A DNA stretch of 63,898 nt, filler included, from Psammoneis japonica (taxonomy: Eukaryota): assembly GCA_008632985.1 (NCBI GenBank). It is 3 parts of 3 records of this genome, joined end to end, with 100 filler letters (N's around TTAATTAATTAA, not from the genome) between each part and the next. Parts side by side here need not be neighbours in the genome. Positions count along the whole stretch, not along the records: positions 1 to 25,087 come from QPGO01000427.1; positions 25,188 to 49,361 come from QPGO01000431.1; positions 49,462 to 63,898 come from QPGO01000496.1. One strand, written 5' to 3'. The notes below the pieces were generated by a model, which did no database searches, was not told where the DNA came from, and worked only from the letters and a program-made list of their open reading frames with translations. The position numbers were made by a program, and so were the translations under genes. Below are positions 17,830-51,357 of this stretch, one piece after another. The number at the start of each line of letters is the position of its first letter. Position 1 is the stretch's first letter.

Positions 17830-19700
17830 ACATTTCCTGAGTGCATCTCAAGAAGCAAGGGAGGAGGAGAGAGATGTCTGCGCAGTGTTGCCTCATCTTA
17901 TGAGACGGCCTCATCCCTCCAGCTCGATCCTTCTTTTTCCACCGATTCACCACGTCAATGTCGTCCTCCGACACATTTCGAGTGATGGCTCTAGAGACGT
18001 GTTCCAGCTCTAGGTGGGACCTCGCACTGCTGAACTGTGACATAATTATTTTTTATCATCCGTCGCATGTTTCGCACGTGCATTTCTACGTGTTCCATTA
18101 TAAAAAATTGTTCCACACTGCCTGTTTTGCGAAGCCAAAGGCTTTCTGTCATCTGCACTTGTGTCAATAAAAATGCGCTGGGTGCATTCTTTAATGTCTA
18201 AAGAACACACCCGGGCATGCTGCAAAGAATGTACTTCAAGTGTGGAGGAGGAGATACGTTCGCAAAATTGCCTCTTTTTCTGTTGGCGATCATTCATACA
18301 TCCATTGCTTGACAATTTTACTACGGAGCTCGCACGTAGAATTCTACGGGCCCAATGTCACAAAAAGTCCCACCTGGGACTGGAACCCGTCTAGAATCCG
18401 ACCCGCGCCGGAAAGACCTGCTGACATCGTGCTTGTCCTCAATGTCCGAATGAGAGGTGATGTCTGCCCCAAAGAGGGACGGGTGGTCGTCAAAAAGCTC
18501 TGAGAGGGAGAGGTGAAAAAGCACATTTGGGTCATGAGAGGACAAGACCTTTCCACTGTCATCCGACATGGCTGGTCCTCGAGTGCGACCCCTTGAAGCT
18601 TGAAAGGTCACAACTGCCTGGACCCACTGTTGAAGGCGAACACCTGATCCCGCGACGTTTGCACTCGGAAGCAGGTGTTGGCACTCCCCGTGTTCTCCCT
18701 TCACTCGACCGAGAAGCGGGATCACCACGTGGGATTGATGGAGAGGCAGGTGTTCCCGCATGGTGCCCAGATCCATGAGCAAGCCTTCGGGCCCACGGAG
18801 GGACAACGTGAAACTTGCCGCGAAGTGCAGGCCGCCAGTCAAGTGCCTGAGGCAATCCCCGGCTGCGGTGGCCCGGTTGAACTTTTCTTCGATCCTGGGC
18901 AGAAGGTGTTGCATGATCTGCGCCGAGATGGCCCTGTCTGGTCTCCAATCTTGCCCCATGCGCCTTTTGCAACCTGTCACAAACCTTTGGAACCAGAGGG
19001 AAGCGCAAGGGTCCTTGCAAATGCGGAGATGTTGTTTGCCCTCAAGGTCGGCAAGAGCCAAGGCTCGCGAGTTTGCAGAAGCCGAAGATCTCACCTGATT
19101 CGAGTGGGCAGTGCGCAACTTCCTGACAGTGTCGAACTGGGTGCACGCGTCAGAGCAGCGGCCCGGGGACGTCGAGGCCAAGACCATCTGCATCGCCGCC
19201 TCATGTCCACAATGATCAAAAGACGGCAGAGGTCCTGGCTCCAAGTGAGGTCCTTGGAGTCCTGAACGCTCTGAGAGAACCAAACCCCGGGTGACTTTGG
19301 ATGCATTGTTCTCTGCCGTGGAGGTCTCTCCACTCCAGAAGGCGTCCAGGTTCACCCGCCTGATGCAAGCCAACGCCACCTCGTTGCGTGGTGAGGTGGG
19401 GAAGGGGTCTCTCTGGCACAGCTTGTGGAAGATGCACCCATCGCACTCGAAAGCCACCATCAGATGGTCCCCGGTTCGCGCGCGTGTGAACTTGTCCTTG
19501 TCCTGTGGCTTCCAAAACCAGGTGTTGTCCTCGATCCGAGCGGCGTCCTCACCGGGAAGGTCCTCGTCGTTGTTTCATTGGTCGAGGTGGAGGATCCCCC
19601 CCAGGTGGAACATCACGTTTTTGCTTGAAGTGTGGCACCCGGGACACCACGCCTTTCGGCACGCGGGCCAGCCCCCGACACTGTGAACAAAATTTGCGCA
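17830..19700 (-). pseudogene. Tyrosine recombinase of the YR retrotransposon, split by a MITE
   Basis: LSLRGPEGL (box I R-x-x-E), IPLLGRVKGE, and SRSFRRGSDSR|AITRNVSEDDIDVVNRW (box II) once MITE 17996-18391 is removed. Upstream CRKAWCPGC and FECDGC Cys motifs. Confidence 0.85.
17996..18391 (+). mobile_element. MITE family 1, subfamily A, TSD TAGA, inserted in the recombinase gene
   Basis: TIRs present; removal restores GSDSRAI. This copy retains many TpA. Confidence 0.92.
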
Positions 19701-21869
19701 GAAGATCCCCTTCGTCCACTTCAGGGTCCTCCCACACTCTCCGCAGCGCCCGGTCCATTGAGCACATTTTTGGGGTGCCCCGGAGTTGCCACGGACTGCG
19801 CAGAACAAACGGAAAAACAAGGCCCACGAGCAAAGGTTCGAACATCTCATCGGGCCAGAAAGGCCCGGCCCCGGACGGAACTCGAAACACCAAGTCGGCT
19901 GCCTTGTGCAGTTGTTTGTGCCATTCAGGAGTCATCAGGCGGGGACACACGAAGACATGGAAAGAAGTCTGACGCTTGAGTCGGGCAATCCGCAGCTCCT
20001 CGAGTGCGTTCCTTGCTGCAGCCGGGGGCGGAGCCCAGACCCAGGTGCCAGAACAAAAGGTCGGCATTTCAACTGCTTCGTGGGGTGGGCAAAGCCACCC
20101 AGATGTGTCATGCCCCTTCTGATGCCAATCAAGCGGGGAGAGCAGATCGGCCGCAGGAGATCCGGCCCAAGACTGAATCCACCCCAGGAGAGGAGGAGCT
20201 CGGTCAGTTGCCGGCAGGTGCAGAGGGACAAACGAGAGCATCTTAGCTCCATTCACAATGCCTTCCGAGAGGACCCCTCCAGAAACTCCGTCCGCACCCT
20301 GGGCCATCATGCGACTCCCCGAAACATGGATCAAGTGAAACACAAACCCATGCTTGGCCTCCAGGACTCTGAGCCGTGCCACTTGTTCCAGGAGTTAAGG
20401 GTTGGAAGAAGTTCCCTTGTAGACGGTGATTTCCGAAACAGAGTTGTCCGTGAAGAAATGCAAAACAGCACGGTCGAGTTCTCCCGCCTCGGCCAGCTCC
20501 TGGATGGAGTCCACTGTGTTGGTTAGTTCCTTCCAGTTTGACGAGTTCGATTGGTCATCATCGCCCCAAACACCAATCCCAAACACTGTCACCCCGTCCT
20601 TCGTTTCTGCCGAGGATCTGAGTCCCTTTCCAGATGCGTCCACAAACCCACACAAGACCACCACGACCTTAGAGGACCTGATTACCCTGGTGGTTGGTTT
20701 CTCAGGCTCCAGGATCCGCTGCAGAGCATTCAGATCCAACCGGAGTCGCGGACCGCGCGAACAGACTCGGGGTGCCTCGCGTCGTGCTGGATCCACACTG
20801 CATGTTCTTTGTTGGACACAGCCCATCCATCGGGATGACGGTTAGGGTGCCACCCATCCAAGGTCAAGTGAATTCCTTTGAGGAACGGGGCAATGAAAGG
20901 GCAGGTCATGGCCGCGTGCACTGAGTGTCCTCGTTTCCTTTCCAGATCCTTGAAATTGAACAGTGGGAGGGAGGAGGCAGGCAAGCCGTCGTAGAAGCTC
21001 AACAGGTCTGCGATCATCGTCTCACTCTTGTCCCACTTTGCTTGAGACAGGGATTGGGTGACGTCTCCCTCTGTCACCCGAAAGATCGCCCCGTCCCAGG
21101 CCCCGGTTTCGCGCTGAGATGGCGGGCGCACCTTCCGGGCCGCATTTTGGAGGCCAAGGCACTGGAGTCTCGATGCCATTTGATGACCCACTTGCCAAGC
21201 CTCTTCTTCGCTCGATCCCATGCCCCGCAAATCATTGATGAAAGTCTTGATGTCGCATGCGATGACCTCTTGACAGGAGTTCCACTTGGTCACCAGCGGG
21301 CTCTTCACATTGCAATCGGGGTCACCCGGCAGGTTCAACAGGACCTTGTCAAAGCCCATCGGGTTCCCCGACCGTCTCGGGTCCCCCCGGGCCACCTCGT
21401 CAGCCCAGTGGTGCGCACACACGGCCAGGTGAGGACTGGGTTTCATGCCCATGAAGAGGCGGTTCCACCTCTCCAGGCCCACAGGGGCCTGACCTGCCAA
21501 AGGTCTCGGCAAGTGGCCCCGCAGCAGGGTCAGGTCGATCCCGGCACAAGGCCGAATGCGGGGGTCCATGAAAAAGTTAAGAAACACATCGGCCAAATCC
21601 AAGTCAACAGAGAAGGTGGATGGGGTCATGCAGCCAAGTGCTGAGGATGCAGTCGGGAGGAAAAATGAAGGAGCCCACAGAGCGTCGTTGAGTCCCGACA
21701 AGGTCCCATTGTAGACCGTGCGAATGTCTTCCACGACCTCCTCCACTCCTCCATCGCCCCTCAGTTGCAGAGACACCGCCTCAGGGACCCAAAAGCAGTC
21801 GGTGAGGCTGGACACAGGCCCCGCCTCGATGCAACCGTGATCCCAGACCTTCTGGAGTTTTGTCGCCAT
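19700..21869 (-). pseudogene. Reverse transcriptase and RNase H of the YR retrotransposon (frameshifted)
   Basis: RT: DIRTVYNGT-SGLND, VDLDLADVFLNF, MGMKPSP, TFINDLR (YxDD site). RNase H: GFVDASGKG, SSNWKEL, FFTDNSV, LIHVSGSRMMAQGADGVS. Confidence 0.85.
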
Positions 21870-22208
21870 CCGCTGGATCTCATTGGACGTGCCGCGGATG
21901 CGTTGCCGCCGTCTGTTCCGCGGGAGGGTGGTCTGGACAAAGATCGGAATGCCGTCGTGTGGGCCCCATCCCGCTGCTCAGGAGAGGGCCAGTGCCAGAA
22001 GAAAAGTGAGGACCCCGGGTCCCAACTCCATCAATCAAGACCTCTGTTCCCAAGTTGGCGTCCAACAACAGGGAGGGAAGTGGTGGGTCCCGGTGCAAAC
22101 CCCCCTGCAGACTCGCAACAGAGTCCCCAAACCGTCGCCGAAGTTGTGCAAGATGGACCATCCACCCTGGACCACAACCCCGACGCAGGAAACTCAAGAG
22201 CGACCGCG

Positions 22209-23276
22209 TCAAGCGCCGCCGCCACCACCGGTGAGCCAACCCGCGCAGGGCCGGGAGCACCGGCTCGAACATGGGAAACAAAAGAGTGACACGCTTGTCC
22301 CAAAGGCGACAGAGTCCCCTTTTGCAGCCTTGGCAGCAATCAGAGACAAGTCGATCCAATCATGGGACAAATGCCGACCCAGTTGCGGCAGCCATGTGGC
22401 CCAAGGACCAGAAACCGGAAGCTCAGGAGACCGTGCAGCCGGGGGTGGCTCCGGCGGCAACCGGGAGCTGGAGCGTTGTAGGATGAAACCATCCGTCACC
22501 GTGTGGAGAAGATTTGAGGGAACCAGCTGAGTGAGGGCGTCCCCCCCCAACTGGTCCCGAACAGCTTGAGTGCGAAACCCAATGGGCAAATCCCACCCTG
22601 CGAGGAGTTCATCTCCCGTGAGAGTGTGGAGAATCCACCCCGTGGGTGAGCGATGGGACTGGCAAAGAACCCTCCGCCCCAAATGGTGGGGGTGCAACAA
22701 ATCGCACTCACGGTGCACACTCTCCCCAGGGTCTGGGGGACTAACCTGCCCCGCGCATTTGTGGTCAATGATGTGACCGATGGTCCGCTGCAGCCCATGA
22801 TCAAGATGTGGCAACTCGTCACCGATGCAGAAGAACGCAGTCCGGAAGGAAGTGACGCCTCCAACCCCCGAATGGGAAATGGCCGAATGAGGGAGGTGCT
22901 GGAGCCCCTTCAAAGCTCGTCTCGAAGCTCCCCCGACCGGGACCATGTGCGTTGGGCACGTGGTCCCCACCCGAGAAACTCTCTCCAAAACACCGGGAGG
23001 CCCCAAAACCAGGGCCAAATCTGAGCTCTCAAATGCATGAGACACCCCGGAGAATGGGATGCGCTGAAGCGATGCGCCCTCTTGCGACTCAAAAAGGGTG
23101 ACAAGCACCAAGTCCAAGGGTGATGGGACAGGATCAATCGAGCAAAGGACAACTCGAGGCCACTCGGAACAGCGGAGGGCCAAGAGCCAAATGGGGGGGG
23201 GGCCCAGAGATGACCAAACATGTCCCACGAAAGGCAAAGATTTTGCAACCGCGAATGGCATGCCCTGCATTCTCAT
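22209..23276 (-). pseudogene. Putative degenerate C5 cytosine DNA methyltransferase-like domain carried by the YR element
   Basis: DLALVLGPP (motif IV-like, no catalytic Cys), ISHSGVGGVTSFRTAFFCIG (motif VIII-like), LTGDELLAGWDLPIGF (motif IX-like) and LTQLVPSNLL (motif X-like), in canonical order. Confidence 0.45.
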
Positions 23277-23304
23277 TCACCTGTGGTTCGCCCCCCGCCT
23301 GGCT

Positions 23305-25087
23305 TCATTTCTTTGCCTCTAGGGCCTTCAGACGACGGTTCACCTCTTTCAACTCCGTTTTTAACTTGCTCACCTCTTGGTGTGCTGCATCGGCTCGCGC
23401 CTGCGCTGACTTCGCTTCCGTGCCCGCATTCTTGGCCTTGTCGGTTGGGGTTACAACCGTGGCCTGCAAGGCTGTCACCACTTCAAAACCCGAATTGGTG
23501 GCGAGAAACTTAACATGCTCCGACGCCATTGAGGGGTGGTCCTTAAAATTGTGCGCCGTGTGTTCACCCATCACGTCCTGGGACCTGAAAACTGCCCAAA
23601 GAATTTGACTGCACACCGCATCGGGGTCGGTCCCTGCGATCGAAGTGAAAAACCCCCGATCGAACCTGGTTGAGGTCGTCGAAGATGCGGTGCACCAGTT
23701 TTGACGTTAAGGACCAAGCCTGTTTCTGAGAAAATTTGCTCAACTGAACAAGATTTTCGCAGGTCTCGTCCATAAACTGCATCAGGGCCCGCACGAACGC
23801 CACGGACTTCAACAGAGCGTCTCGAACAACCTGGCTCTCAAAGGAACCACTCGGGATCCTCTGGGAAATGTCATTCAAAGCATTGCGTTTGATCGTGACG
23901 ATCCTTTACATGATGAAATGTTTTGCACCAGTGGAACCCGTCGTCCAATGGTCATGGGTTGACACCTTGTCCAGGAACAAGGGATGTGGCCCAGGTGACT
24001 GAGCTCCTTTCGCTGATCCCGAGTCGAGAATCCTCGGCATGCTGCATTGGAAACTGGCAAGTGTCCGTGCATCCTCTTCCGTGCTGATTTTCAAGTCCAT
24101 CCGTTTGGACAATCCAGCAAGGAAGTGATGCAGGGCGGCCGGCTCGGTGCCCGCAATTTGGTCCAACAACAAGTTAGTGTCCGTGAGGCACCCATGCGCT
24201 CTGGAGGAAAAATGCTGAACCATCCAGGCTTCGCATTCTGCGAATGAAGAAACGCCTGCACCCGAGAATTTGATGGCTGAAGATTCCGATTTTGATTTTA
24301 GCTCATTGACCGCCTGGCTGAGGTCTCGGATTTGACGATCGAGTGTCGCAAGAGGCGCGACTCCCGCTCCACTGGCCCCGCTGCCCAAGCTGGCGACTCC
24401 TCCACCCGATGCAGCGACGTTCTCCAATCTCTGTACTTTCGCCACTGGTTGGTTGCAGACTCTTGGGGTCCCCGCCCTCAGAGACTCTAGGTCGTGTTCA
24501 GGAGCAAACCCGGAGAGCTGGGTCTGGACCCTCTGCAGAGCTGCATTGAAACTTGACGCCAATCTGTTGGAACCGGCCCGAGCACTGCTTTCCAAGCGGG
24601 CCAACTCCGTAGAGAAATCCCGGGATTGGAGTGCTCCCGGACTGAGTGTCGACAGGTTGGCGAGCGTCCCCCAGATGGTCGGGGCTTCCACTTGCTGGTC
24701 GAGCTCAGACAGAGGGGTGCCAAGAGAGGCATCGAGCTGTTCCAATTTCTGACTCAACACATCAAGTGCCAAGTCCGAGTCCTTGAACCGAGAGCAGGCT
24801 TTGTTCCCCAACTCGACTAGAACTTGTCCCGTTTCCGACAAGTTTCGCTTGACCGACTGAACCACACGAGCTGGGGCCGCAGGACTCTTGTTTGCAGCAA
24901 GAAATTGGGACGGGGTGGTGGTGATGGCCCGCTGGCAAGGCTCGAACTGCCCAAACTGTGCCCCCGGGAACATGTCGCTCCCATGACACTTGGTTTTAGC
25001 TGGGGTTTTGCAGGCCGCAGCCTCTTTGTGCTGCTTTCAGGGACTCGCCAAACTGGTCCTCCATCGGGAACCACGACTCACTGTTTC
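23305..25087 (-). pseudogene. Gag-like ORF1 of the YR element (frameshifted, coiled-coil rich)
   Basis: Consecutive ORFs 23906-24973, 23564-23878 and 23305-23616 upstream of pol; C-terminal coiled coil. Confidence 0.6.
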
Positions 25088-25187
25088 NNNNNNNNNNNNN
25101 NNNNNNNNNNNNNNNNNNNNNNNNNNNNNNNTTAATTAATTAANNNNNNNNNNNNNNNNNNNNNNNNNNNNNNNNNNNNNNNNNNNN
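25088..25187. other. Assembly gap with artificial TTAATTAATTAA spacer
   Basis: N-run, TTAATTAATTAA (25132-25143), N-run. Confidence 0.95.
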
Positions 25188-25899
25188 CTTGCATGGAAAA
25201 CAGCAAACTGCCAAAACAAGTTGCTGCTGTGTGCTTCATCGCTGTCGTGCACACACCAACAACTGTTGTTCGCTGCTGCTGCTGCTGCTGCTTCCACACC
25301 ACAATGAAAAGGACTCCTTTTTTAAAAGCAAAAATGCAGTGTCTTAAAAAAGCACCTGTCAAGGTGATGTGTGTCACAGGCAACCACCAGCCATTTTGCA
25401 AAGTTCTCGCTCAAGAGTTTCAAGGTCAACAGGACCATTGTGTTGCCAAGAGTTGCAGCTGACGCCGCAACCCCCGCTGATGCCCCCCTCCTTTGTGTGT
25501 GTGATGTTTTTGTTTGATTTCTCAAATGGAGAGAAAATTGCAAGTCAACATGAGTGGCTGGACTTGCAGCAAAACAATGTTCAAACAACTCTTGGCTGGC
25601 TTTTTTAAAACTGCTCTTGTTGGACAAAGAGGGCAGTTTCATTTGATCCCAATGTGCAGGAGCATTGATGTCAGAGGAGTGATTCTACACACAAAAGAGC
25701 AGCAAAGAGCAAAGTCACTGCAGTGTTGTGCAACAGTGATTTTGCGCATTGCCAAAAATTTGTTGTGCACAGCATTGTTTCTCAACAAGAATGTGAGAAT
25801 GTCTGCTCAAGAGTTGTTTTGCACATTGTTTGTAACACAGCACACCACATTGCATCCTTTGTCAATCCTCCCACACCCCAGACACAAAAGAAAGCTGTG

Positions 25900-27110
25900 G
25901 CAACAACAAAGTCAGCCATGCCACTCTGGAGCCCCTCTGACTGCATTCATCTTGGCTTTTTGTGCACCTGCGCATGGTCCATGCGCTGCTTCATGGCAGA
26001 GGACAAGATGCTCTCCTCAACACCTTCCATGATGGCAATCTTGACCTTGCTGTCATTGCCATTGCGTGCAACAATTCAAATTCAACAAGGCTCCACAACC
26101 AGCTTTTTTGCACATCTGCGTGGTCTGCATGTTAAAAACTCATGGTGGGCACAATGCTTTCAATCCCTTCCACAGCAGCAGCAATCTTGACCCAGTTGTC
26201 ACCATTTGCACCAAACAAGTGCCTCAAGGCAGAGCAACCGGCTTGCTGCACACTCAGCACACCATGCTCCACTTGTTTGTTCATTGTGGATGCAATGCCC
26301 CCAATCCTTCCCATGGTGGCATTCTTGACCTTGTTGTCATCATTTTGCAGAGCCAAAATCCTCAAGGCTCAACAACAACCAGCTTCTTGCACACCCGCGT
26401 GTGTCAGTTCATGGTGGACACAATGCACCACCAGCCAACCCCTCCCACAATGACAATTTTGACAACCTGAGCAAATGAAGGGGCTTGTGATTTGAGCATT
26501 TTTATTTTGGACAAGACATGTTGGTTGATGAACTTGACTCATGTTCTCATGTTTGAGCTTGAGGTTTTGTGATTTGGGTTTGAGAGGTTTTGAGCTTTGG
26601 ACAACAAGGCAGAGCAGCACTCAAAGAATTGAACTTGTGGAAGATTTTGCAAATCTCCTTTGGCCATTTCAGGCCACATCATTCTTTCTCCTTGTTGCAC
26701 AAAATTGTCTGAGAGCACCTGGGCATCAACAACAGAAGATTCTCAATTCCCCACACTGCTGCATCTGCAGTGGTGGGGGGTTGCCTTGGTCAAATGGGTG
26801 GTGCTCAAATGTGATTCTTCTGGTGGAGGCAACAGAAAGGCTGGCTCTCCAATCCAAAGATTGAAACATCCACGTGAACTTGCAGCACCATCAGAACATG
26901 ATGCTTGCACTGTCTTTCAGCATCAAATGCAAGCACAGGAGCTGCAAATGGGGGCATGAGGCAGTTGTGCCAAGCAGCGCCAATTGTCAAGCCCTTTCCA
27001 ACTGTGATGCTCACTCCAACACCCATTTTCAACAATTTTGCAAAGATTGCAGCAGATTTCCAACACATGCCAACAACGATCAGCACCGCCAAGGTCTTGC
27101 ACACTCAAAC
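25900..27110 (-). pseudogene. Armadillo-repeat pseudogene, possibly with an upstream U-box-like domain, inside a TpA-depleted block
   Basis: Repeated VQEAGCC.ALRILALQNDDNKVK..., VQQAGCSALRHL...NWVKIAAAVEGIESIVPTM and VQKAGCGALLNL. Upstream TLAVLIVVGMCWKSAAI...ITVGKGL is weakly U-box-like. Confidence 0.6.
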
Positions 27111-29008
27111 AGCACATCGAAGCTTTGCTGCTGCTTGTTCCTTTTTCCCATGACTCCTGGCATGCTTCACCCACTGCCCGTGCTTGTGTTGCCAATGTTT
27201 TCTTGCTGCAGCCCTGGCTTTTGGCTTTCCTTCTTTGAGCTCGCTCACTGTTCTTTAACAAGGGTTTTGGGCAAATTTTCAAAGTTTGACTCAGGGCTCA
27301 ACATGCAGTCTTCCCAGCAACTGCAACAAAAATCCATTTGGGCTCCACTCAACTGAGTGCTGATTGTCCCCAGCTCCTCACATTCTAACACTCAGTTGTC
27401 AGTGTCCTGCACATTTTTAGAAACATTGCTCCCCCAACCACTGTTGATGCTGCTGCAATTTAAAGGATGCTTGTTCTGCCTTGAGGGACCTCTCTCTTCT
27501 GCTCTTGTCATTTTCTTTTCAGTTGTGGGCTGTGCATTGCAAAGCCAGAAAAAACTGACAAAAGTGTCAACTTCCTCACAAAATCACTCACTCAAATGCC
27601 AGCACTTTGAAAATCTTGTCCCTGTCTCTGACGCCTGTGGCTTTGGCATCCAGGCAAGTTGTGGGTGCATCATTTCAAAACCAGAACAAGAAGGGCCTGT
27701 GGTGCAGTTTTTTTTTGGCGCTGGTCTCTGCACTGTTTTTGCAACATGACAACTGATGTGCACACTTGCCTTTCTCAGTGCTGGCTTTGCAAATGCAGAG
27801 CTTCAATCAACAGAACATTCAGCACTTTCCCAGCAACTGGACTCTTCTTGCCTTGCACATTGGGGTGCAAATGAGCAGATGTCCACAGGTTGGGTTTTGC
27901 TGGAGTCATTTAAAATGCTCGAATGACGGAATGCACAAAACTGGCAAATGGTTTGTCAAAGGTGTTCGTGATGAATGCATGGATCTTGAGTCCATTGGGA
28001 TTCAAAGTCAAGAAGAAGGTGCCAGACTGATGGGTCCATCTGAGTCAGGGCACAATCATCTGGTGGTCCACCGCATCTCACATGGTTTTGCTTTCACAGT
28101 CTTCATCTTTGAATTTTTAAGCACAATCAGAATGAAAATTCACAAACTGTTGGTGCAAAATTTCCCACATGCTGGGGCCATCAATGCCAGCATCAGTCTT
28201 GGCATTTCCCACTCTTTGATGTCTGTCACTTTGACAAACAATGAGTTCCACCCACATGTTTGAAGGAGTGCAAGTGCTCACAAGATGAACAACTGTGCTG
28301 AAGCATGATGAAAGAGAAATCACCTTTGTCACACAAATGTCAAGAAGAGCGGCTGTGTGCAAGGATTCCAGATGGAAAATGACTCATGTGCAGCAAGCAT
28401 GATTCTTTGTGAAAGATCACGGCAGGAAAATTTCGAAGAAGACCACAAGCGTTTCAAGCACAGGAGTGATGAGAATGGGAAAGATCTTCTGTTGCACCTA
28501 CATTGCATGAGGTGCCACCCTAGCTGGCTCTAACTAGCTAGGCTGGGCGGTGGTCATGTAGCCTTCTGCTGGCTCGTAGTCGTTCTAAATAATGATGTGC
28601 TCAGAAAAAGAATTGACATGTGCTGCATTTGCGTTGACTGTTTTCCGTACTTCTGCATTGTTCTATAAGGGAGACGCGGTTTCTCGCAAATCGAACCCCT
28701 CTGTTGGACTGCACTGCTGCTAGCGAGACGGTGTGATTTCTCCTGGAGAGAAAGTCAGTGTCAGCCAATGATGATAGTCACCAAGAATACCCTCATTCAT
28801 CTAGACATATTCACAAAAAAATTCTCTTCTACTACGGCCATCCTAAGCGACTACTCCTTCTCCCCGGCACAACCCATTCCGCGAACCGACCTTGTTCTCA
28901 CGACTGGAATAATGTACATCGCACTTACTCTTACAAGTCCTCCATTGATTTTGATTGAATCTCTATTGACTTGTGTAAGAAATACATTGCATGAGCTTCT
29001 TCCCATCA

Positions 29009-30142
29009 TCACGCCAACAGGGAGGCTCGACGCGTAAGGATGGATTGGATTGCCAATCGACAAACGTCAGTCTTACATGCTAGTTCCTTTAAGTCTTGCA
29101 AAATCTCATAATCTGCACGGTAGAACTGTGCAAGACATTGTTTAGCCTTGGGTGATAGAGGAGCATGATACTTGTCGGTTGTAACGGAAGAATGAAGTCT
29201 CGACGGGGACGTGCGAGGGGCATTGTTCCTCTTCTGCTTGCAATCCATTTGAACAACATTGGCTTGTCGCGAAGCAAAGTCAGACGCATTGAAGAATCTT
29301 GTATGATTATGGATCCAACGAACCGCATCATCAATTTGAGCATAATAGTCAAAATTCTCCTCCAGCACAACTGGCATAATGGACGGTGCTGCTGTTTTCC
29401 ACCAGTCGATTCCCAACCAATCCTCTATGGAGAATCGAGCGTGTACAATTTGTTTCAAATCCATCCTGGCGTCCGCCTCAGTAGAATCATTGCAAAGGGC
29501 TTCTGCCAAGAGGTTTGCATTTTGCTCATACTTGTCAAAAATAATTTCCTGCTCGGCACGCACACGAGAATGATTCTGACAATGCGTGTAGGGACCGCCT
29601 GCTGGATAACCCGGTTCGCGATCATCGCCGTGTGGATTGCAGAGGACAAGGTCTCGCCAATAAAAGGCCGAAACAAAGCGATCGATCGGATCTCGAATTG
29701 TAATGACAAATAATGCAGCCGTATCGGACACCAAGCGCTTGGTACAAGGAGTCGGATGACATTCTCTGGGTTTGATCCGCCATGCACGAGTTGTTCGGTC
29801 TCGAAATGTACCGCCTCCGGCTTTTCCAATGTGCAACAGCATGAATTTATCTCTTGATAGAGATATCATCTGTATATTACTGAGTGATTTCTCCTTTTTT
29901 GAGGACTGTGAGGTACATTCTGCGCTGAGATCGTTTTGGATTAATGACGTGGTTTCATTATTGTGTTGCGAAAAAGGTGCGATCTTTTTCTGCACCAGCT
30001 CATGGTGTTGTAATTTGCTCCTCGGATCCGACAGGATAACAAGCACACAATAAGCAACTAGAGCAACTGGAGCCACTGAAAGGAAAACTGGTCTTGTCAT
30101 TGTCATGGCGTTTGATGTGTATCGGCAGCGGATCGTCATCAT
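29009..30142 (-). CDS. Golgi-type carbohydrate sulfotransferase (Sulfotransfer_2-like), type II membrane protein
   Basis: N-terminal TM anchor; 5'-PSB motif LLHIGKAGGGTF; 3'-PB motif IRDPIDRFVSAFYW; C-terminal FYRADYEIL. ORF is intact. Confidence 0.85.
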   Translation of the reverse strand: MMTIRCRYTSNAMTMTRPVFLSVAPVALVAYCVLVILSDPRSKLQHHELVQKKIAPFSQHNNETTSLIQNDLSAECTSQSSKKEKSLSNIQMISLSRDKFMLLHIGKAGGGTFRDRTTRAWRIKPRECHPTPCTKRLVSDTAALFVITIRDPIDRFVSAFYWRDLVLCNPHGDDREPGYPAGGPYTHCQNHSRVRAEQEIIFDKYEQNANLLAEALCNDSTEADARMDLKQIVHARFSIEDWLGIDWWKTAAPSIMPVVLEENFDYYAQIDDAVRWIHNHTRFFNASDFASRQANVVQMDCKQKRNNAPRTSPSRLHSSVTTDKYHAPLSPKAKQCLAQFYRADYEILQDLKELACKTDVCRLAIQSILTRRASLLA

Positions 30143-38000: not shown

Positions 38001-38026
38001 TTCCACACCCTCAATCGGGGTACAGA

Positions 38027-41000
38027 CTACCTGTAATCAGGACTCTTGGGGCAGGTCTTCTTGCGGCACTTAACACCGGCTCCCACGAATTTTCCACCAC
38101 GCCTGTAGCACTTGGATTGCTTCAACAACATGCACTTGCCATTCTTCCAGCAACAAGCTCCCGGTTTAGAGGAGCAGGTATTCTTCTTGCACTTAGTTCC
38201 GAATCCAACAAACTTTCCATGCTTCATCCTGACACAAGTGTTCTTCTTCAACACGGCACACGACCCATTGGGCAAGCAGCATGCACCATGAGCGGCAGGG
38301 CACGATTTCATGCTGCACTTGACACCTTCGCCAGAAAAATGCCCGCCCTTCTTGATGCACTTCTTCTCAGGGAGAGTTTTGCATTTCCTTACATCAACCA
38401 AGCAGCATGCACCAGGCTTGCCGCGGCGACCAATGGGACAGGTGTTGTCATCCTTGCACATGGTACCAATGGCGATGAACTTGCCATACTTCCTCCTGCA
38501 CACGGCAGGAACGAGGTTGCGGCATAGTCCACTGTCAAAGCAGCAGGCCCCTAACGGTTTCTTGTCAGGAGCAGGGGTAGGGCTTGGATTCTTGACTGGG
38601 CACACCACATTCTTACAGGAAGTGCCAGGACCCAAGAAGAAGTTTCCGTTGGTAGCGCACGTCTGTTGAGACCAGAAACGGCACTCTCCAGATTTGAGGC
38701 AACAGGCTCCGGGAGAGGTCCTTGTGGGACATATGCCCGGCTTGCACTTGACTCCAAGTCCTAAAAATACGCCCGTGTCACAATCTTCTTCTGCGGTTTG
38801 TTCACATTCATCCTTCATGACATCACAGCACGCTCCAGTCGGAGGAGGAGTAATGGTGGGTTTTTGCGTAGGCGCTGCGGTGCTAGGAGCCGGAGTTGGT
38901 GGTTTGGTCGGGCACAAGCCGAGTTCACATTGCACGCCAAATCCCTGGAACTTGCCTCCTTGGTTGGTACACTCCTTCTTAAAGGTTCGCTTACACCCAT
39001 CCTCCAAGCAGCAAGCTCCCTTGTTGGGGCATTCAGTGTCCTTACACTTTTGGTTTGGTTTCGTGAATGTACCACCGCCCAAAGCGCACGTCTCCTGAGA
39101 AAGGTACTTGCATCCATCAAGCAAGGTGCAGCATGCACCAGGACTCTGATCAACTTTCGTTGGGGGCAGTGTAGGAGCTTTGGTTGGAGCCGGCGTAGTG
39201 GGAGCCATGGTAGGAGCCGGGGTAGTTGGAGCCATGGTAGGGCTCTTTGTCGGAGAGGTTGTAGGAGGTGACGTCGGGCAATCTGCGTCCTCGCACGTTA
39301 CGCCGTTTCCTTGCCAGAGTCCGTAATTTGAAAGACATTCTTCTTCAGTTCCCTTGAAGCAAACCCTATTGGATCCAGCTAGTGGGCAGCAAGCGCCCTT
39401 CCGCACAGTGGGTGACGGCGTTGGCGCTGGTGTAGGGGACGGCGTCGGACTCGGGGTAGGAGCAGGAGTTGGAGACGGCGTTGGCGCTGGTGTAGGAGCA
39501 GGGGTTGGACTCGGAGTAGGAGCAGGGGTTGGAGACGGGGTCGGACTCGGAGTAGGAGCAGGGGTTGGAGACGGCGTTGGCGCTGGTGTAGGGGACGGCG
39601 TCGGACTCGGGGTAGGAGCAGGCGTCGGAGACGGCGTTGGCGCTGGTGTAGGAGCAGGAGTCGGAGACGGCGTTGGCGCTGGTGTAGGGGACGGCGTCGG
39701 ACTCGGGGTAGGAGCAGGGGTCGGTGACGGCGTTGGCGCTGGTGTAGGAGCAGGGGTTGGACTCGGGGTAGGAGCAGGAGTTGGAGACGGGGTTGGCGCT
39801 GGTGTTGGGGACGGCGTCGGACTCGGGGTAGGAGCAGGGGTCGGAGACGGCGTTGGAGCTGGTGTAGGAGCAGGAGTTGGAGACGGCGTTGGCGCTGGTG
39901 TAGGAGCAGGGGTTGGACTCGGAGTTGGCGCTGGTGTAGGAGCAGGGGTCGGACTCGGAGTAGGAGCAGGGGTTGGAGACGGCGTTGGCGCTGGTGTAGG
40001 GGACGGCGTCGGACTCGGGGTAGGAGCAGGCGTCGGAGACGGCGTTGGCGCTGGTGTAGGAGCAGGAGTTGGAGACGGCGTTGGCGCTGGTGTAGGGGAC
40101 GGCGTCGGACTCGGGGTAGGAGCAGGGGTCGGTGACGGCGTTGGCGCTGGTGTAGGAGCAGGGGTTGGACTCGGGGTAGGAGCAGGAGTTGGAGACGGGG
40201 TTGGCGCTGGTGTTGGGGACGGCGTCGGACTCGGGGTAGGAGCTGGTGTAGGAGCAGGAGTTGGAGACGGCGTTGGCGCTGGTGTAGGAGCAGGGGTTGG
40301 ACTCGGAGTTGGCGCTGGTGTAGGAGCAGGGGTCGGACTCGGAGTAGGAGCAGGGGTTGGAGACGGCGTTGGCGCTGGTGTAGGGGACGGCGTCGGACTC
40401 GGGGTAGGAGCAGGCGTCGGAGACGGCGTTGGCGCTGGTGTAGGGGACGGCGTCGGACTCGGGGTAGGAGCAGGGGTCGGTGACGGCGTTGGCGCTGGTG
40501 TAGGAGCAGGGGTTGGACTCGGGGTAGGAGCAGGAGTTGGACTGGGTGTCGGAGCAGGAGTTGGAGCCGGGGTAGGTGAAGGCGTCGGCGCAGGTGTCGG
40601 ACTCGTGGTAGGAGCAGGTGTTGGCGCTGGAGTAGGCGACGGCGTCGGCGCAGGTGTTGGACTCGGGGTGGGAGAAGGCGTCGGTGCTGGAGTTGGACTC
40701 GGCGTCGGCGCAGGTGTGGGCGACGGAGTTGGGCTCGGGGTAGGAGAGGGAGTCGGAGACGGCGTCGGCGCAGGAGTTGGACTTGGAGTGATTGGACTAA
40801 CGTCCAACGAGAAGGTCTCATTGCACACACACTTGGAGCCTGGCTTTGGGTACGCTACAAAAGATGATAGAGATAGCGGAAAAAGTAAGCAGACATGTAA
40901 GAAACTGAGAAGCATGGGACCGAGCAACCAAATTAAAAAAAACACTCGAGTAGACCAACTTCACCTTCCACGGGGACCGTGCAAAGTTTATTGTTTCCCG

Positions 41001-42527: not shown

Positions 42528-42922
42528 GAAGTGTTCCAGCTCTGGGTGGGACCTCGCAGCACTGAACTGTGACATCAATGGTTTTTTGGATCGTGCCGCA
42601 TGTCGCGCACGCAGATGGCTGCGTGTGACATTCTAGGAAATTGTTTCACACTTCCTATTTTGCAAAGCCAAAGGCTTTCTATTTTCAACATTTGTGACAA
42701 TGAAAATGCGCTGGGCATGTTCTTCAATGTCTGTGGAACACACCCATGCAAACTGTTGTTCATGTGCTCCAAGTGTGAAGGAGGAGATGCGTTCGTAAAA
42801 TTGCCTCTTTTTCTGTTGGCGATCACACATGTTTCAATTGATTGATGATTTTAACACAGAGCTCGCACGCAGAATTCCACGGGCCCAATGTCACACGGAG
42901 TCCCCTGGGATTGGAACCCATC
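42528..42922 (+). mobile_element. MITE family 1, subfamily A, no matching TSD
   Basis: TIRs present; flanks GGGT and ACAA differ. Confidence 0.85.
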
Positions 42923-48900: not shown

Positions 48901-49341
48901 GAAAAGCACCCTCGCCCGATGGGTTCCAATCCCAGGTGGGACTCCGTGTGACATTGGGCCCGTAGAATTCTGTGTGCGAGCTCTGCATTGGTGTTCTACA
49001 GACATTAAAGGACATGCCCAGCGCATTTTCATTGTCACAAATGTTGAAAATAGAAAGCCTTTGGCTTCGCAAAATGGGAAGTGTGAAACAATTTCGTAGA
49101 ATGTCACACGCAGCCATCCACGTGTGCGACATGCGGCACGATCCAAAAAACCATTGATGTCACAGTTCAGTGCTGCGCGGTCCCACCTGGAGCTGGAACG
49201 CGTTGCCCCAACGCAGACCAGATTCACGAATCACTTCCTCTCACAGTTGTCCTTGTGGACCTTGCAGAACTGTAGAAGACCAGCAATCTGGTGCAGACAG
49301 GCAGCAACAGACTCAGTGTGCTTGCAGCAGGACCAGAGTCG
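42923..49341 (-). mobile_element. Copia (CoDi-type) LTR retrotransposon, near full length, degenerate
   Basis: Gag (FKRGIKRD), protease (ALVDRGANGGITG), integrase (SEPHHQHQNFAE), RT (HKARLVADGH, AAYVDD), RNase H (DWFSKKQATVETATCGSEF). PPT TGGGGAG precedes a TGACAGG 3' LTR start at 43175. PBS-like AGAAAGGTTTGGGG at ~48810. Confidence 0.9.
48918..49204 (-). mobile_element. MITE family 1, subfamily A, internally deleted, TSD GCCC
   Basis: Reverse orientation; GCCC on both flanks. Confidence 0.9.
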
Positions 49342-49461
49342 GGTGACAGCATTGTGTGTGTNNNNNNNNNNNNNNNNNNNNNNNNNNNNNNNNNNNNNNN
49401 NNNNNTTAATTAATTAANNNNNNNNNNNNNNNNNNNNNNNNNNNNNNNNNNNNNNNNNNNN
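49342..49461. other. Assembly gap with artificial TTAATTAATTAA spacer
   Basis: N-run, TTAATTAATTAA (49406-49417), N-run. Confidence 0.95.
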
Positions 49462-49476
49462 CCATTTTGCACCATC

Positions 49477-49872
49477 AACGCATTCCAGATGCAGGCGGGA
49501 ATCCGTGTGACATTGGGCCCGCAGACTTCTGCGTGCGAGCTCCGCAGCAAAATCACATGGCAATTAAAGTGCCAATGATCGCCAACAGAAAATGAGGCAA
49601 TTTTGCGAACGCACAAACTCGCCCATGATTGAAGTGCATCATTTTTTACTTGGCCAGTTGCACTCTTCAGACATTGAAGAGTGCAACTGGCGCATTGTTG
49701 TTTCCATGAATTCGTCACACAAAACGTCTGGGGCTTCGCAAAACAGCGAGTCTGGGCAATTTTTTTTAAATGTCACACACAGAAAGCTGTGCGCGAAACA
49801 TGCGACGGATGACAAAAATCATTTGTGTCACACGTCAGTGCTGCGAGCTCCCACCCAGGGCTGGAACGCGTC
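49477..49872 (-). mobile_element. MITE family 1, subfamily A (diverged), TSD CATC/CCTC
   Basis: TIRs present; the empty site GCACCCTCAGTC is at ~53336. Confidence 0.85.
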
Positions 49873-50961
49873 CCTCAGTCATTTTGTGACCTCAGCAATT
49901 TTGTGCCCCTGCCTGGTTTGTGCCCTTTGTGGTTTGGCACCCTCAACAGACTTTTTTGTCCTTTTTGATTTTGTGCCCTTGGCCATTTTGCTGGTCACGA
50001 CAGAGCTGCAGAACAACAAGAACCTGCCCGATGAAGAGCGCGGGGCAAAGAAGAGAAAGTGCGCGAGATGCCTGAAGCACTTCGCGGCAGGGAACTCCAA
50101 GAACAGAGATGCGGAAGGGAGCGCACCCAGGAAACGCAAGAAGGAGGATTTTTACAGGAAGACTGTGGCAGAGCGTGGCAGGAAAGTGGAGGAGGGGGGC
50201 AGTGGGTTGGGGAGCGAGGAAAGCCACGTGACGGGTTGCACTGAGATGCATGAGCTGGAGCCAGCACCTGTTTGGCAGACAATGTGTGAAAAGCGGCAGT
50301 CACGTTTGTTGCAAATGATGTTGCAGACACAATCTAAATTGAGCGGCTGCACTCCACGGCGCCAGCCAGAGAGCAGCTGGAGAAGGGCACAACACAAGCG
50401 GCACTTTGGGAAGCCAGTCAACCGATCTGTTGTCAGCCAGCTGTCGAATGTGTTTGAGTGGGTGTGCCGGAGTTTTTGGCCCGTTTGCTTTCTGCGCGGC
50501 CTGGAACAACCCAAATCTGTGTAGACTCAGTGCACCTCGCCCTGCAGAACAGCTTTTGGGGGTGTTTTCTGGCTCACGGCTCAAAGTGGCACGCAAAATG
50601 ACACGGACAATGGCGTTTCGCCAAACTGAAAAATGCGATCGTCTCTGAGGTTGGAGCCTGGATGCTCTCAACCGAATTTGGTGAGTCACATCATCTTGTG
50701 CGATTTTTCGCATTTTCGCATTTTCGCATTTTCGCAATTTTGCATTTTCGCATTTTCGCATTTTCGCATTTGGCGCTGGGGGCACCTTTGAGATTTTTGT
50801 GCCCTCAGCCATGTTGCGCAATTCTTGGTTTTGTGCCCTTGACCTTTTTGCGCCCTTGGCTGCTTTGCGCCCTTTCCTTTTTTTGTGCCCTTGAGCACTT
50901 TGCCCTGTCTCGTGGTTTTGTGCCCTTGGCCATTTTGCGCCCTTTGTGACTTTGTGCCCTT

Positions 50962-51357
50962 GGCGCGCTCCAGCTCCAGGTGGGACCTTGCACTGCTGAG
51001 CTGTGGCATCGACGGTTTTTTGGATCGCGCCGCGTGTCGCGCACGTGGAGTTGTGCGAGACTTTTGTGAAATTTTGCATCATTTTGTGGCACGCTCATTG
51101 AGCGATCCGTCCAACAACTTTTGACATTTTTTGTTGCAGCGCGATTCTGCGATGTCTTGAGAATCGCGCAGGGCAGGTGCGTTTGCAAAAATGTCAAGTG
51201 GCAAGAGGCACAATTGCACCACAAACTTGGCCGTTTGTTTGATGTTGAAGACAAACACATCCATCGATTGGAGCCAAGTTCTCGTGCTGCGGAGCTCGCA
51301 CGCAGAACTCTGCGGGCCCAATGTCGCGCGGAGTCCCGCCCAGGACTGGAGCCCGTC
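50962..51357 (+). mobile_element. MITE family 1, subfamily B, TSD CCTT
   Basis: TIRs present; empty site at ~52770; copy lacks TpA. Confidence 0.9.

What the first reader, a model, noticed from the sequence alone, without database searches (positions are those of the whole stretch)
17996..51357. MITE copies give direct, polarised before/after evidence and a relative clock for TpA loss
Seen: the shared 3' segment reads CTACGGAGCTCGCACGTAGAATTCTACGGGCCC in copy 17996-18391. It reads CTACGGAGCTCGCACGCAGAATTCTGCGGGCCC in 16327-16716 and CTGCGGAGCTCGCACGCAGAACTCTGCGGGCCC in 50962-51357, a stepwise TA to TG/CA loss. The TpA-rich copy sits inside a TpA-stripped recombinase gene. Inference: it inserted after the host was mutated, so the process is cumulative or episodic rather than a fixed regional composition.
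Basis: partly seen in the sequence, partly recalled or inferred. Interest (0 to 1): 0.75.

Follow-up and report, generated by a model that had tools for sequence, protein, structure and literature searches.

The report
Transposon copies record stepwise TpA loss
Ten copies of a small DNA transposon in this alga-like genome show that repeat-rich DNA has been stripped of the dinucleotide TA by TA-to-TG/CA mutation, and that later insertions escaped most of it, which matches a hypermutation process so far reported only from one other alga.

Summary
The three quoted 33-mers are in the window as written. They belong to 10 copies of a ~390-nt element with terminal inverted repeats and 4-bp target duplications, in two subfamilies that share their ends.

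The direction is TA to TG/CA, not RIP-like:
- Of 26 aligned sites where some copy keeps TA, 10 show both TG and CA in the other copies.
- In the host retroelement's reverse-transcriptase-like frame, 5 of 8 Tyr positions conserved in homologs are now Cys or His.
- The recombinase-like frame shows the same Tyr-to-Cys/His changes.

Timing is supported. Three copies (17996, 60390, 52848) hold 8-17 TA while 2 kb of flank holds 3-9 (p 1e-4 to 2e-6). Two copies that share one older insertion site hold 0 and 2.

The "clock" is only qualitative. The three quoted copies are not one lineage. TA-rich copy 17996 is also 10% diverged at other sites.

The same TpA-only A:T>G:C hypermutation was reported in 2026 from mutation-accumulation lines of Bigelowiella natans. 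All six named homologs of this window's proteins are from diatoms, so this is probably a second lineage. CpG loss in the window follows a different regional pattern.

The parts
17996..18391 (+). MITE-like copy, subfamily A, TA-rich (17 TA, o/e 0.58). It is inserted in the recombinase-like frame of a retroelement. Target-site duplication TAGA at 17992-17995 and 18392-18395.
   Evidence: it keeps 12 of 15 inferred ancestral TA sites
16327..16716 (+). MITE-like copy, subfamily B, nested inside an A copy (target duplication AGCC). 10 TA, o/e 0.37.
   Evidence: keeps 8 of 11 ancestral TA sites
16185..16975 (+). MITE-like copy, subfamily A, split by the nested B copy (own parts 16185-16326 and 16717-16975). 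Target duplication GACC. 5 TA, o/e 0.19.
   Evidence: keeps 4 of 15
50962..51357 (+). MITE-like copy, subfamily B, with no TA left. Target duplication CCTT. It occupies the same site in the satellite unit as copy 63315, so the insertion is older than the unit duplication.
   Evidence: keeps 0 of 11; all 9 of its private changes are A>G/T>C
63315..63704 (+). MITE-like copy, subfamily B, sister of 50962 at the same site in a paralogous satellite unit. 2 TA.
   Evidence: keeps 1 of 11
52848..53236 (-). MITE-like copy, subfamily B, an insertion unique to satellite unit 2 (target duplication TTCA). The paralogous sites near 51435 and 63775 are empty. 8 TA against 3 in 2 kb of flank.
   Evidence: keeps 7 of 11
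60390..60781 (+). MITE-like copy, subfamily B (target duplication TGGC). 11 TA against 3 in 2 kb of flank.
   Evidence: keeps 9 of 11
42528..42922 (+). MITE-like copy, subfamily A. 5 TA. No recognisable target duplication.
49478..49872 (-). MITE-like copy, subfamily A, very diverged (22% at other sites). 3 TA, none of them at the 15 ancestral TA sites. Imperfect target duplication (3 of 4 bases match).
48914..49203 (-). MITE-like copy, subfamily A, with an internal deletion. Target duplication GCCC.
17834..25036 (-). Dead retroelement that hosts copy 17996. It has a gag-like frame (23909-25036), a reverse-transcriptase-like frame (20733-21977), and a tyrosine-recombinase-like frame (18393-19574, continuing at 17834-17995 past the MITE). 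TpA o/e is 0.09 over 18392-25087.
   Evidence: A model of the homolog P0075 matches Cre, XerH and lambda integrase.
49876..54130 (.). Tandem units of about 1.25-1.45 kb (1.64-1.83 kb with their MITE insertions), stripped of TA (o/e 0.02-0.05). They carry the shared and the unique MITE insertions. A further partial unit lies at 62690-63898.

Best explanation
The ~390-nt repeats are non-autonomous DNA transposons. They have 12-nt terminal inverted repeats within a longer imperfect one and a 4-bp target-site duplication, and they form two subfamilies with common ends. They lie in a repeat-rich stretch of a probable diatom genome. This stretch has undergone a DNA-level transition process that is largely restricted to the dinucleotide TpA. 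The A of TpA becomes G on either strand, so TA becomes TG or CA. Over about 40 kb almost no TA is left and CA/TG is in excess. Each transposon copy records how much of this process it experienced after landing. Old insertions keep 0-1 of 11 ancestral TA sites. Insertions that came after their host sequence was stripped keep 7-12 of 11-15. The process was therefore cumulative or episodic and was largely over at these places before the later insertions arrived. Shown here: the direction of change, its TpA context, its action on non-retro DNA in place, and the order of events. Inferred: the chemistry, which is most likely targeted deamination of adenine to hypoxanthine in silenced or foreign DNA, as proposed for the same signature in Bigelowiella natans. 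Also inferred: that it serves as a genome defence.
For: Element anatomy: 10 copies, shared ends and two internal types. 4-bp target duplications are intact in 8 of 10 copies, and two insertions have empty paralogous sites.

Direction: 85 aligned pyrimidine-purine dinucleotide (YR) sites vary, and 26 of them have TA in at least one copy and no CG. At 10 of these 26 the other copies carry both TG and CA, which needs one step each from TA but two from either alternative. A further 22 sites alternate TG/CA only. Just 4 are CG/TG/CA. The 5' inverted repeat keeps TA in 2 copies at a site where its 3' mirror is TG in 6 copies and CA in 4.

Protein check: in the reverse-transcriptase-like frame, 8 columns have Tyr conserved in 10 homologs. 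Tyr is kept in 1, is Cys in 3, His in 2 and Phe in 2. Tyr makes up 0.5% of the frame against 1.7-3.6% in the homologs. The recombinase-like frame shows Tyr to Cys/His at 5 places, including two Tyr near the C-terminus that homologs conserve.

TpA specificity at window scale: TA o/e is 0.01-0.13 while AT o/e is 0.65-0.95 in the same segments.

Order of events: TA in copy versus 2 kb of flank is 17/29.5 vs 9/92.8, 11/27.2 vs 3/117.2 and 8/26.0 vs 3/113.5 (p 1e-5, 2e-6, 1e-4). The copies at the shared older site hold 0 and 2 TA.

Action in place: the two copies at the shared site differ TA/TG at one ancestral TA site (column 188).

Precedent: mutation-accumulation lines of B. natans gave 230 of 231 new mutations in two viral insertions as A>G/T>C, all at TpA, and in only some lines. 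TpA-poor clusters there were enriched in reverse-transcriptase and DDE domains (bioRxiv 10.64898/2026.01.13.699255; outline with abstract, Results and Discussion read).
Against: - Only 10 copies from one 64-kb window were available, and sister copies share history. Subfamily B gives about 2 independent age classes.
- The nested case goes the right way (inner 10/26.8, outer 5/25.6) but is not significant (p 0.17).
- Copy 17996 is TA-rich yet 10.3% diverged at other sites, so TA retention and ordinary divergence do not form one clock.
- The process is not strictly TpA-only. The 9 private changes of copy 50962 are all A>G/T>C, but only 1 is at TpA and 5 are at CpA. The 3' shared end, polarised by subfamily A, shows CA>CG there.
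- A copy could be TA-rich because it is not targeted rather than because it is young.
- The organism is not identified. If the window is B. natans itself, nothing is new in kind.
- No enzyme, base modification or de novo mutation was or could be examined here.
Confidence: 0.72

Rival explanations
1. RIP-like or deamination-only direction: CG decays to TG/CA and CA/TG decays to TA by C>T alone. TA-rich copies would then be the most mutated, and TA-free DNA the least.
For: In the singleton analysis the TA-rich copies 16327, 60390 and 17996 show an excess of apparent G>A/C>T changes, several of them at CpA. CpG decay is real in the window: CG/TG and CG/CA sites dominate the differences between satellite units. 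TA/TG/CA three-state sites could in principle descend from a lost CG.
Against: This reading needs CG to be lost in all copies at 10 three-state sites, yet copies retain 56-85% of inferred ancestral CG sites. It cannot explain Tyr to Cys/His at positions conserved in homologs. It cannot explain a TA o/e of 0.01-0.1 across unrelated sequence types. The apparent C>T singletons at CpA are what majority-rule polarisation produces when one copy alone keeps an ancestral TA.
Confidence: 0.04
2. RNA-level A-to-I editing (ADAR-like, with a 5' U preference) of transposon transcripts, fixed by reverse transcription. The retroelement would then have arrived already edited, and the local order of events would say nothing about a regional DNA process.
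For: The host of copy 17996 is a retroelement. A 5' U/T preference fits TpA; the ADAR preference is as quoted in the preprint's Discussion.
Against: DNA transposon copies with target duplications, tandem satellite units and unclassifiable sequence are stripped just as thoroughly. Two copies at one shared insertion site differ at a TA site, so at least some loss happened in place. A retroelement with its conserved Tyr positions and its YVDD-type motif changed could hardly have transposed afterwards. That ADARs are confined to animals is recalled knowledge, not tested here.
Confidence: 0.05
3. TA-rich copies are not younger. They escape because targeting is by sequence or chromatin state (for example small-RNA guided) and these copies are not recognised. 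The contrast with their flanks would then carry no time information.
For: In B. natans the process hit some foreign regions and some lines but not others. Copy 17996 is 10.3% diverged at non-YR sites, which does not look young.
Against: Members of the same subfamily are fully stripped elsewhere: 50962 keeps 0/11 and 49478 keeps 0/15. In the satellite array, the insertion that predates the unit duplication is stripped, and the one that postdates it (with empty paralogous sites) is not. The target-site TA of copy 17996 survives in both duplicated copies.
Confidence: 0.15
4. GC-biased gene conversion or a general AT>GC pressure in a recombination-active repeat region, rather than a TpA-specific mutator.
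For: Copy 50962 has 9 of 9 private changes A>G/T>C in several contexts. It and its sister share A>G changes outside TpA. Stripped segments are somewhat GC-richer (0.47-0.58) than the ordinary ones (0.46).
Against: Context specificity is extreme: TA o/e is 0.01-0.13 while AT o/e is 0.65-0.95 in the same segments, and AA and TT are in excess over the window as a whole (1.21 and 1.26). Several stripped segments have the same GC as ordinary DNA (0.46-0.48).
Confidence: 0.05

Closest known systems
TpA-targeted hypermutation of integrated viral DNA in Bigelowiella natans (Mettrop et al., bioRxiv 10.64898/2026.01.13.699255, 2026)
   Same: Same signature: TpA to TpG/CpA. TpA depletion is coupled to CpA+TpG excess in clustered regions, affects transposon-type genes, and does not act everywhere or all the time (outline with abstract, Results and Discussion read).
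   Different: - There it was seen as new mutations in a giant-virus and a virophage insertion that still hold 3.3% and 9.2% TpA. Here it is a near-saturated end state (TpA o/e 0.01-0.13) in retroelements, DNA transposons and satellite DNA.
- All six named homologs of this window's proteins are from diatoms and none from Bigelowiella.
- The preprint's main text has no occurrence of 'CpG' or 'MITE'. Its supplements were not available to me.
- Here some A>G changes fall at CpA, whereas the preprint reports TpA only.
Repeat-induced point mutation (RIP) of fungi
   Same: Context-specific transition hypermutation that inactivates repeated or mobile DNA and leaves a dinucleotide signature.
   Different: The direction is opposite. 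RIP turns CpA into TpA and enriches TA (as summarised in abstracts listed). Here TA is destroyed. Dependence on duplication was not testable in one window.
5-methylcytosine deamination at CpG
   Same: It also feeds TG/CA. It is present in this window (CG o/e 0.16-0.17 at 25.2-27.6 kb and 30.3-37 kb) and in the MITE copies (56-85% of CG sites kept).
   Different: It follows a different regional pattern. The retroelement and the satellites have TA o/e 0.02-0.09 but CG o/e 0.68-0.79. Copy 50962 keeps 0/11 TA but 29/36 CG.
MITEs (miniature inverted-repeat transposable elements)
   Same: Small size (~390 nt), terminal inverted repeats, target-site duplications, many copies, nested insertion, empty paralogous sites.
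   Different: No autonomous partner or transposase was found in the window, so the superfamily is unassigned. A 4-bp non-specific duplication is not diagnostic on its own.

Membership tests
MITE / non-autonomous TIR DNA transposon | Terminal inverted repeats | tested here: met
   The 5' end GACG(Y)GTTCCAG mirrors the 3' end CTGGAAC(S)CGTC, inside a longer imperfect inverted repeat.
MITE / non-autonomous TIR DNA transposon | Target-site duplication of fixed length | tested here: met
   A 4-bp duplication is intact in 8 of 10 copies (TAGA, AGCC, GACC, GCCC, CCTT twice for one event, TTCA, TGGC). One copy matches at 3 of 4 bases and one has none.
MITE / non-autonomous TIR DNA transposon | Insertion polymorphism or empty sites | tested here: met
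   Paralogous satellite units lack the 50962-type insertion (near 52775) and the 52848 insertion (near 51435 and 63775).
MITE / non-autonomous TIR DNA transposon | Related autonomous element with a transposase | tested here: not met
   No transposase domain was found among the 128 open frames scanned with Pfam. One window is too small to decide.
TpA>TpG/CpA hypermutation (B. natans type) | A:T>G:C transitions at TpA on either strand | tested here: met
   10 of 26 TA-bearing sites show both TG and CA products. Tyr becomes Cys/His at conserved positions.
TpA>TpG/CpA hypermutation (B. natans type) | Restriction to TpA | tested here: inconclusive
   The window-scale signature is TpA-specific. However, 5 of the 9 private A>G changes of copy 50962 are at CpA.
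TpA>TpG/CpA hypermutation (B. natans type) | Clustered TpA-poor, CpA+TpG-rich regions of foreign or mobile origin | tested here: met
   About 40 kb has TA o/e <=0.13 and CA/TG o/e 1.2-1.95. It holds a Copia-type RT (RVT_2), a recombinase-bearing retroelement, MITEs and satellites.
TpA>TpG/CpA hypermutation (B. natans type) | De novo occurrence at about 1e-7 per site per generation in only some lines | not testable with these tools
   This needs mutation-accumulation or population data for this organism.
Fungal RIP | C>T at CpA, producing TpA excess | tested here: not met
   The direction is opposite.
Tyrosine-recombinase retroelement (DIRS-like) | Tyrosine-recombinase fold of the protein interrupted by the MITE | tested here: met
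   The homolog P0075 (47% identical) was modelled at pLDDT 87. The matches listed in the PDB fold search are tyrosine recombinases (XerH, Cre, lambda Int), E 1e-4, with whole-chain TM only 0.27-0.42 and up to 0.59 on catalytic cores. Pfam, NCBIfam and a PDB profile search gave no sequence-level hit.
Tyrosine-recombinase retroelement (DIRS-like) | Reverse transcriptase next to the recombinase; characteristic terminal repeats | tested here: inconclusive
   The RT-like frame has 28 homologs and a (Y/F)VDD-type motif that reads FIND here, but no Pfam RT hit. Terminal repeats were not examined.

The most novel reading that the evidence does not exclude
A DNA-level, TpA-specific adenine-to-guanine mutator that silences mobile and repeated DNA is not a peculiarity of one chlorarachniophyte. 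It also operates in diatoms, where it has run to saturation over tens of kilobases. It acts independently of CpG methylation decay and in bouts, so dated transposon insertions (nested, shared or unique) can serve as a built-in stratigraphy of those bouts. That would point to an old, possibly SAR-wide genome-defence pathway, opposite in direction to RIP, whose enzyme is unknown.
Probability: 0.4. Interest if true: 0.85.

Novelty: new member of a known kind. Interest (0 to 1): 0.66.

Why it matters
Targeted hypermutation that removes TpA has so far been described once, in a 2026 preprint on a rhizarian alga. Its mechanism and spread are unknown. This window shows the same signature at saturation in what is probably a diatom. 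It affects retroelements, DNA transposons and satellites, and the insertions are internally ordered. If that holds, three things follow:
- The process is not confined to viral insertions or to a single lineage.
- It can be separated from CpG decay.
- MITE families give a cheap genome-wide way to date its activity and find its targets.

There is also a practical side. TA-free DNA lacks TAA and TAG stops, so it is full of spurious long open frames, and its transposon genes escape Pfam. Annotators of such genomes need to know this.

Tried and rejected
- Pfam on 128 open frames gave only a Copia-type RVT_2, a weak sulfotransferase match and chance-level hits. The stripped retroelement frames have no Pfam match. 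NCBIfam and a PDB profile search were also blank.
- Rfam found nothing in the window.
- Identifying the organism: a homolog search with a normal-composition frame (1379-2269) found nothing. The named relatives of two other frames are all from diatoms, at 24-45% identity. The species therefore stays unknown.
- Majority-rule singleton polarisation is misleading for TA sites: a lone surviving TA looks like a C>T gain. I used it only for copies without TA.
- A clock from divergence to the subfamily consensus fails for subfamily A, because copies 17996 and 49478 belong to a separate sub-lineage.
- Satellite units as an independent record of TA loss: they had lost nearly all TA before they duplicated, so they inform mainly on CpG decay.
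- Literature searches for TpA loss or RIP-like processes in diatoms returned nothing relevant apart from the B. natans preprint. I read only the listings of the other papers.

Full report
**1. What is there**

They are the 3' shared segment of a ~390-nt repeat that occurs 10 times in the window, not 3.

The copies fall into two subfamilies. They share about 100 nt at the 5' end and about 70 nt at the 3' end but differ inside.
- Subfamily A: 17996-18391; 16185-16326 plus 16717-16975; 42528-42922; 49478-49872(-); 48914-49203(-), which has an internal deletion.
- Subfamily B: 16327-16716, 50962-51357, 52848-53236(-), 60390-60781, 63315-63704.

The ends are inverted repeats: GACG(Y)GTTCCAG mirrors CTGGAAC(S)CGTC, inside a longer imperfect inverted repeat. 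Eight of 10 copies are flanked by an intact 4-bp duplication with no common sequence. One matches at 3 of 4 bases and one has none.

Copy 16327 sits inside an A copy. Copies 50962 and 63315 occupy the same site, with the same duplication, in two paralogous units of a tandem array, while a third unit has that site empty. Copy 52848 is unique to one unit, and two paralogous sites are empty.

These are MITE-like non-autonomous DNA transposons. No transposase was found in the window.

**2. The setting**

TpA observed/expected is 0.30 for the whole window, but it is bimodal:

| Segment | TpA o/e | Other |
|---|---|---|
| 1-10 kb, 12.3-15.3 kb, 37-41.8 kb | 0.55-0.70 | ordinary composition |
| About 40 kb: 17-27.6, 30.3-37, 42.9-63.3 kb | 0.01-0.18 | CA and TG o/e 1.2-1.95; ApT 0.65-0.95 |

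CpG loss follows a different map:

| Segment | TA o/e | CG o/e |
|---|---|---|
| 25.2-27.6 kb and 30.3-37 kb | about 0.05 | 0.16-0.17 |
| Retroelement and satellites | 0.02-0.09 | 0.68-0.79 |

The stripped DNA includes four kinds of sequence:
- a Copia-type reverse transcriptase (RVT_2);
- a retroelement on the minus strand at about 17.8-25 kb;
- tandem units of about 1.25-1.45 kb without their MITEs;
- sequence that no library recognises.

Because TAA and TAG are absent, these regions are full of long open frames that mean nothing.

**3. The host of copy 17996**

The frame at 18393-19574(-) has 2080 relatives at E<=0.001. It aligns with them end to end. The alignment resumes at 17834-17995(-), immediately past the MITE and its duplicated TAGA.

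No Pfam, NCBIfam or PDB sequence profile matches this family. I therefore modelled an intact homolog, P0075, which is 47% identical (pLDDT 87). The matches listed in the PDB fold search are tyrosine recombinases: XerH, Cre and lambda integrase. E is about 1e-4. Whole-chain TM scores are modest at 0.27-0.42 and reach 0.59 on catalytic cores.

Upstream lies a reverse-transcriptase-like frame (20733-21977) with 28 homologs. The element is a dead tyrosine-recombinase retroelement.

**4. Direction of change**

Across the two subfamily alignments, 85 aligned pyrimidine-purine dinucleotide (YR) sites vary.
- 26 sites have TA in at least one copy and no CG in any. At 10 of these the remaining copies carry both TG and CA. 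Each is one transition away from TA, but two from each other.
- 22 more sites alternate TG/CA with neither TA nor CG left.
- Only 4 sites are CG/TG/CA.

A C>T-only (RIP-like) history could produce TA/TG/CA sites only from a CG lost in every copy. Yet copies keep 56-85% of inferred ancestral CG sites.

The inverted repeats give an internal control. One site in the 5' repeat keeps TA in two copies, one from each subfamily. Its mirror in the 3' repeat reads TG in six copies and CA in four.

The proteins of the host element give independent polarisation.
- In 8 alignment columns where 10 homologs conserve Tyr, the window's RT-like frame keeps Tyr once. It has Cys three times, His twice and Phe twice. 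Other conserved residues are kept in 64-100% of columns for every residue with at least 5 conserved columns.
- Tyr makes up 0.5% of that frame, against 1.7-3.6% in the homologs.
- The recombinase-like frame shows Tyr to Cys/His at five places, including two Tyr near the C-terminus that homologs conserve. That one of these is the catalytic Tyr of tyrosine recombinases is my reading from recalled motif order, not a tested assignment.

TAY to TGY or CAY is exactly TA to TG/CA.

**5. How much each copy lost**

Sites were taken as ancestral TA when TA is present in some copy and CG in none.

| Copy (subfamily) | Ancestral TA kept |
|---|---|
| 60390 (B) | 9/11 |
| 16327 (B) | 8/11 |
| 52848 (B) | 7/11 |
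| 63315 (B) | 1/11 |
| 50962 (B) | 0/11 |
| 17996 (A) | 12/15 |
| 16185 (A) | 4/15 |
| 42528 (A) | 4/15 |
| 48914 (A) | 3/11 |
| 49478 (A) | 0/15 |

Both products occur in every depleted copy.

**6. Order of events**

Three copies are far richer in TA than the 2 kb around them:

| Copy | TA in copy (obs/exp) | TA in flanks (obs/exp) | p |
|---|---|---|---|
| 17996 | 17/29.5 | 9/92.8 | 1e-5 |
| 60390 | 11/27.2 | 3/117.2 | 2e-6 |
| 52848 | 8/26.0 | 3/113.5 | 1e-4 |

Four further points bear on order.
- The only TA in the kilobase to the right of copy 17996 is the TA of its own target duplication, and that TA survives on both sides.
- In the satellite array, the insertion that predates the unit duplication (50962/63315) holds 0 and 2 TA. 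The insertion that postdates it (52848) holds 8.
- The nested pair goes the same way, inner 10/26.8 against outer 5/25.6, but this is not significant (p 0.17).
- The two copies at the shared site differ TA/TG at one ancestral TA site (column 188). At least some loss therefore happened in place after insertion, at the DNA level.

TA poverty is a history, not a standing property of the region.

**7. Limits of the "clock"**

TA states are scattered across both by independent losses.

In subfamily B, TA retention falls as divergence at other sites rises. Copies at 1.1-3.0% divergence keep 7-9 of 11; copies at 5.6-5.9% keep 0-1 of 11. But the two diverged copies are sisters, so this is about two independent points.

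In subfamily A, the most TA-rich copy is 10.3% diverged at other sites, because it belongs to a separate sub-lineage together with 49478. Divergence from a consensus therefore mixes source-lineage differences with time since insertion.

The measure also saturates at zero TA. A usable clock needs all genomic copies and a tree, which I could not obtain.

**8. Specificity**

At window scale the signature is TpA-specific. One detail does not fit a strict TpA rule. The 9 private changes of the fully stripped copy 50962 are all A>G/T>C, with no opposite transition and no transversion. Only 1 is at TpA and 5 are at CpA. In the 3' shared end, where subfamily A serves as outgroup, these are CA>CG gains. 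Either the mutator has a weaker second preference that shows once TpA is exhausted, or another AT>GC pressure acts there.

The 139 TAs surviving in stripped DNA are enriched in CTAA/TTAG, TTAA and CTAG, and none is ATAT. The 770 TAs in ordinary segments do not show this bias. This hints at a flank preference or at regeneration of TA by ordinary C>T. It is unresolved.

**9. Comparison with what is known**

A full-text search found one directly relevant paper: a 2026 bioRxiv preprint on Bigelowiella natans, 10.64898/2026.01.13.699255. I read its outline with abstract, Results and Discussion. It reports the following.
- In mutation-accumulation lines, 230 of 231 new mutations in an integrated giant-virus region and a virophage region were A>G/T>C.
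- All of them were at TpA.
- They occurred in 11 and 6 of 15 lines respectively.
- The rate was about 1000 times background.
- Across that genome, 124 clusters of TpA-poor, CpA+TpG-rich 1-kb windows were found.
- The TpA-depleted coding sequences of that genome were enriched in reverse-transcriptase and DDE domains.
- The authors propose adenine deamination, with an ADAT2-like candidate, as a defence.

This window shows the same signature, so the phenomenon is known in kind.

Three things differ here.
- **Degree.** The stripping is near saturation.
- **Targets.** They are retroelements, a DNA-transposon family and satellites, with internal ordering of insertions. The preprint's main text has no occurrence of "MITE" or "CpG". 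I could not see its supplements, which list the clusters.
- **Organism, probably.** All six named relatives of two window proteins are from diatoms: Cylindrotheca (two hits), Epithemia, Amphora, Conticribra and Fragilariopsis. None is from Bigelowiella. This is indirect, since identities are 24-45% and a third query found nothing.

Searches combining diatoms with TpA, RIP or mutation spectra found no report of such a process in diatoms (listings only).

Fungal RIP is the closest classical analogue in logic, but it runs the other way.

**10. Verdict**

The direction and the order-of-events inference are supported. The "stepwise series" and the "clock" are only qualitatively supported.

The mechanism is inferred by analogy, not shown: targeted adenine deamination at TpA in silenced DNA, acting in bouts.

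I rate it a new member of a known kind. Interest is fairly high, because the known kind rests on a single recent preprint and this would be a second, distant host with a richer historical record.

Noticed in passing
window 25188-27600 and 30301-37000: These segments are depleted in both TpA (o/e about 0.05) and CpG (0.16-0.17), with CA and TG near 1.9. The retroelement and the satellites lose TpA but keep CpG at 0.68-0.79. Two separate processes with different targets seem to be at work. No protein family was recognised in these segments.
   Followed up: partly
window 50962-51357: All 9 private substitutions of this fully TA-free copy are A>G/T>C, and 5 of them are at CpA, creating CpG. This suggests a secondary context for the mutator, or another AT>GC pressure, once TpA is exhausted.
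   Followed up: partly
stripped segments listed: The 139 surviving TAs are biased to CTAA/TTAG (23% vs 9.5% in ordinary DNA), TTAA (18.7% vs 4.7%) and CTAG (10.1% vs 3.5%). ATAT is absent (0 vs 7.1%). This may be a flank preference or regeneration of TA from CA/TG.
   Followed up: no
window 25088-25187 and 49362-49461: Two identical patterns of N runs (44 N, 12 bases, 44 N) occur, one at the outer edge of the retroelement and one next to a MITE copy. They may be masked or unresolved copies of one repeat. There is also a single N at 63311.
   Followed up: no
window 39300-40950: A long tandem array with a 12-nt period is G-rich on the + strand (GC skew up to 0.41). It has near-normal TpA and open frames of 559-977 codons on both strands. 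It may encode a repetitive protein or be a minisatellite.
   Followed up: no
window 50697-50780 and 52313-52720: 8-nt microsatellites (TTTTCGCA / TGTTCGCA units) lie inside the tandem units, and their length differs between units.
   Followed up: no
window 29012-30292 (-): A 427-codon open frame has a weak Sulfotransfer_2 match. Its 42 homologs reach at most 44% identity, and the named ones are all from diatoms. It lies in a pocket of intermediate TpA (o/e 0.38) between two stripped blocks and is possibly a host gene.
   Followed up: partly
window 20733-21977 (-): The polymerase motif that homologs write (Y/F)VDD reads FIND here. I suspected CpG>CpA changes at codon junctions (Val>Ile, Asp>Asn), which would mean CpG decay also hit this element. 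I did not check the DNA.
   Followed up: no
window 10001-12300: A 2.3-kb island of low TpA (o/e 0.26) and low CpG (0.55) lies inside otherwise ordinary sequence. It is probably another old mobile-element fragment.
   Followed up: no
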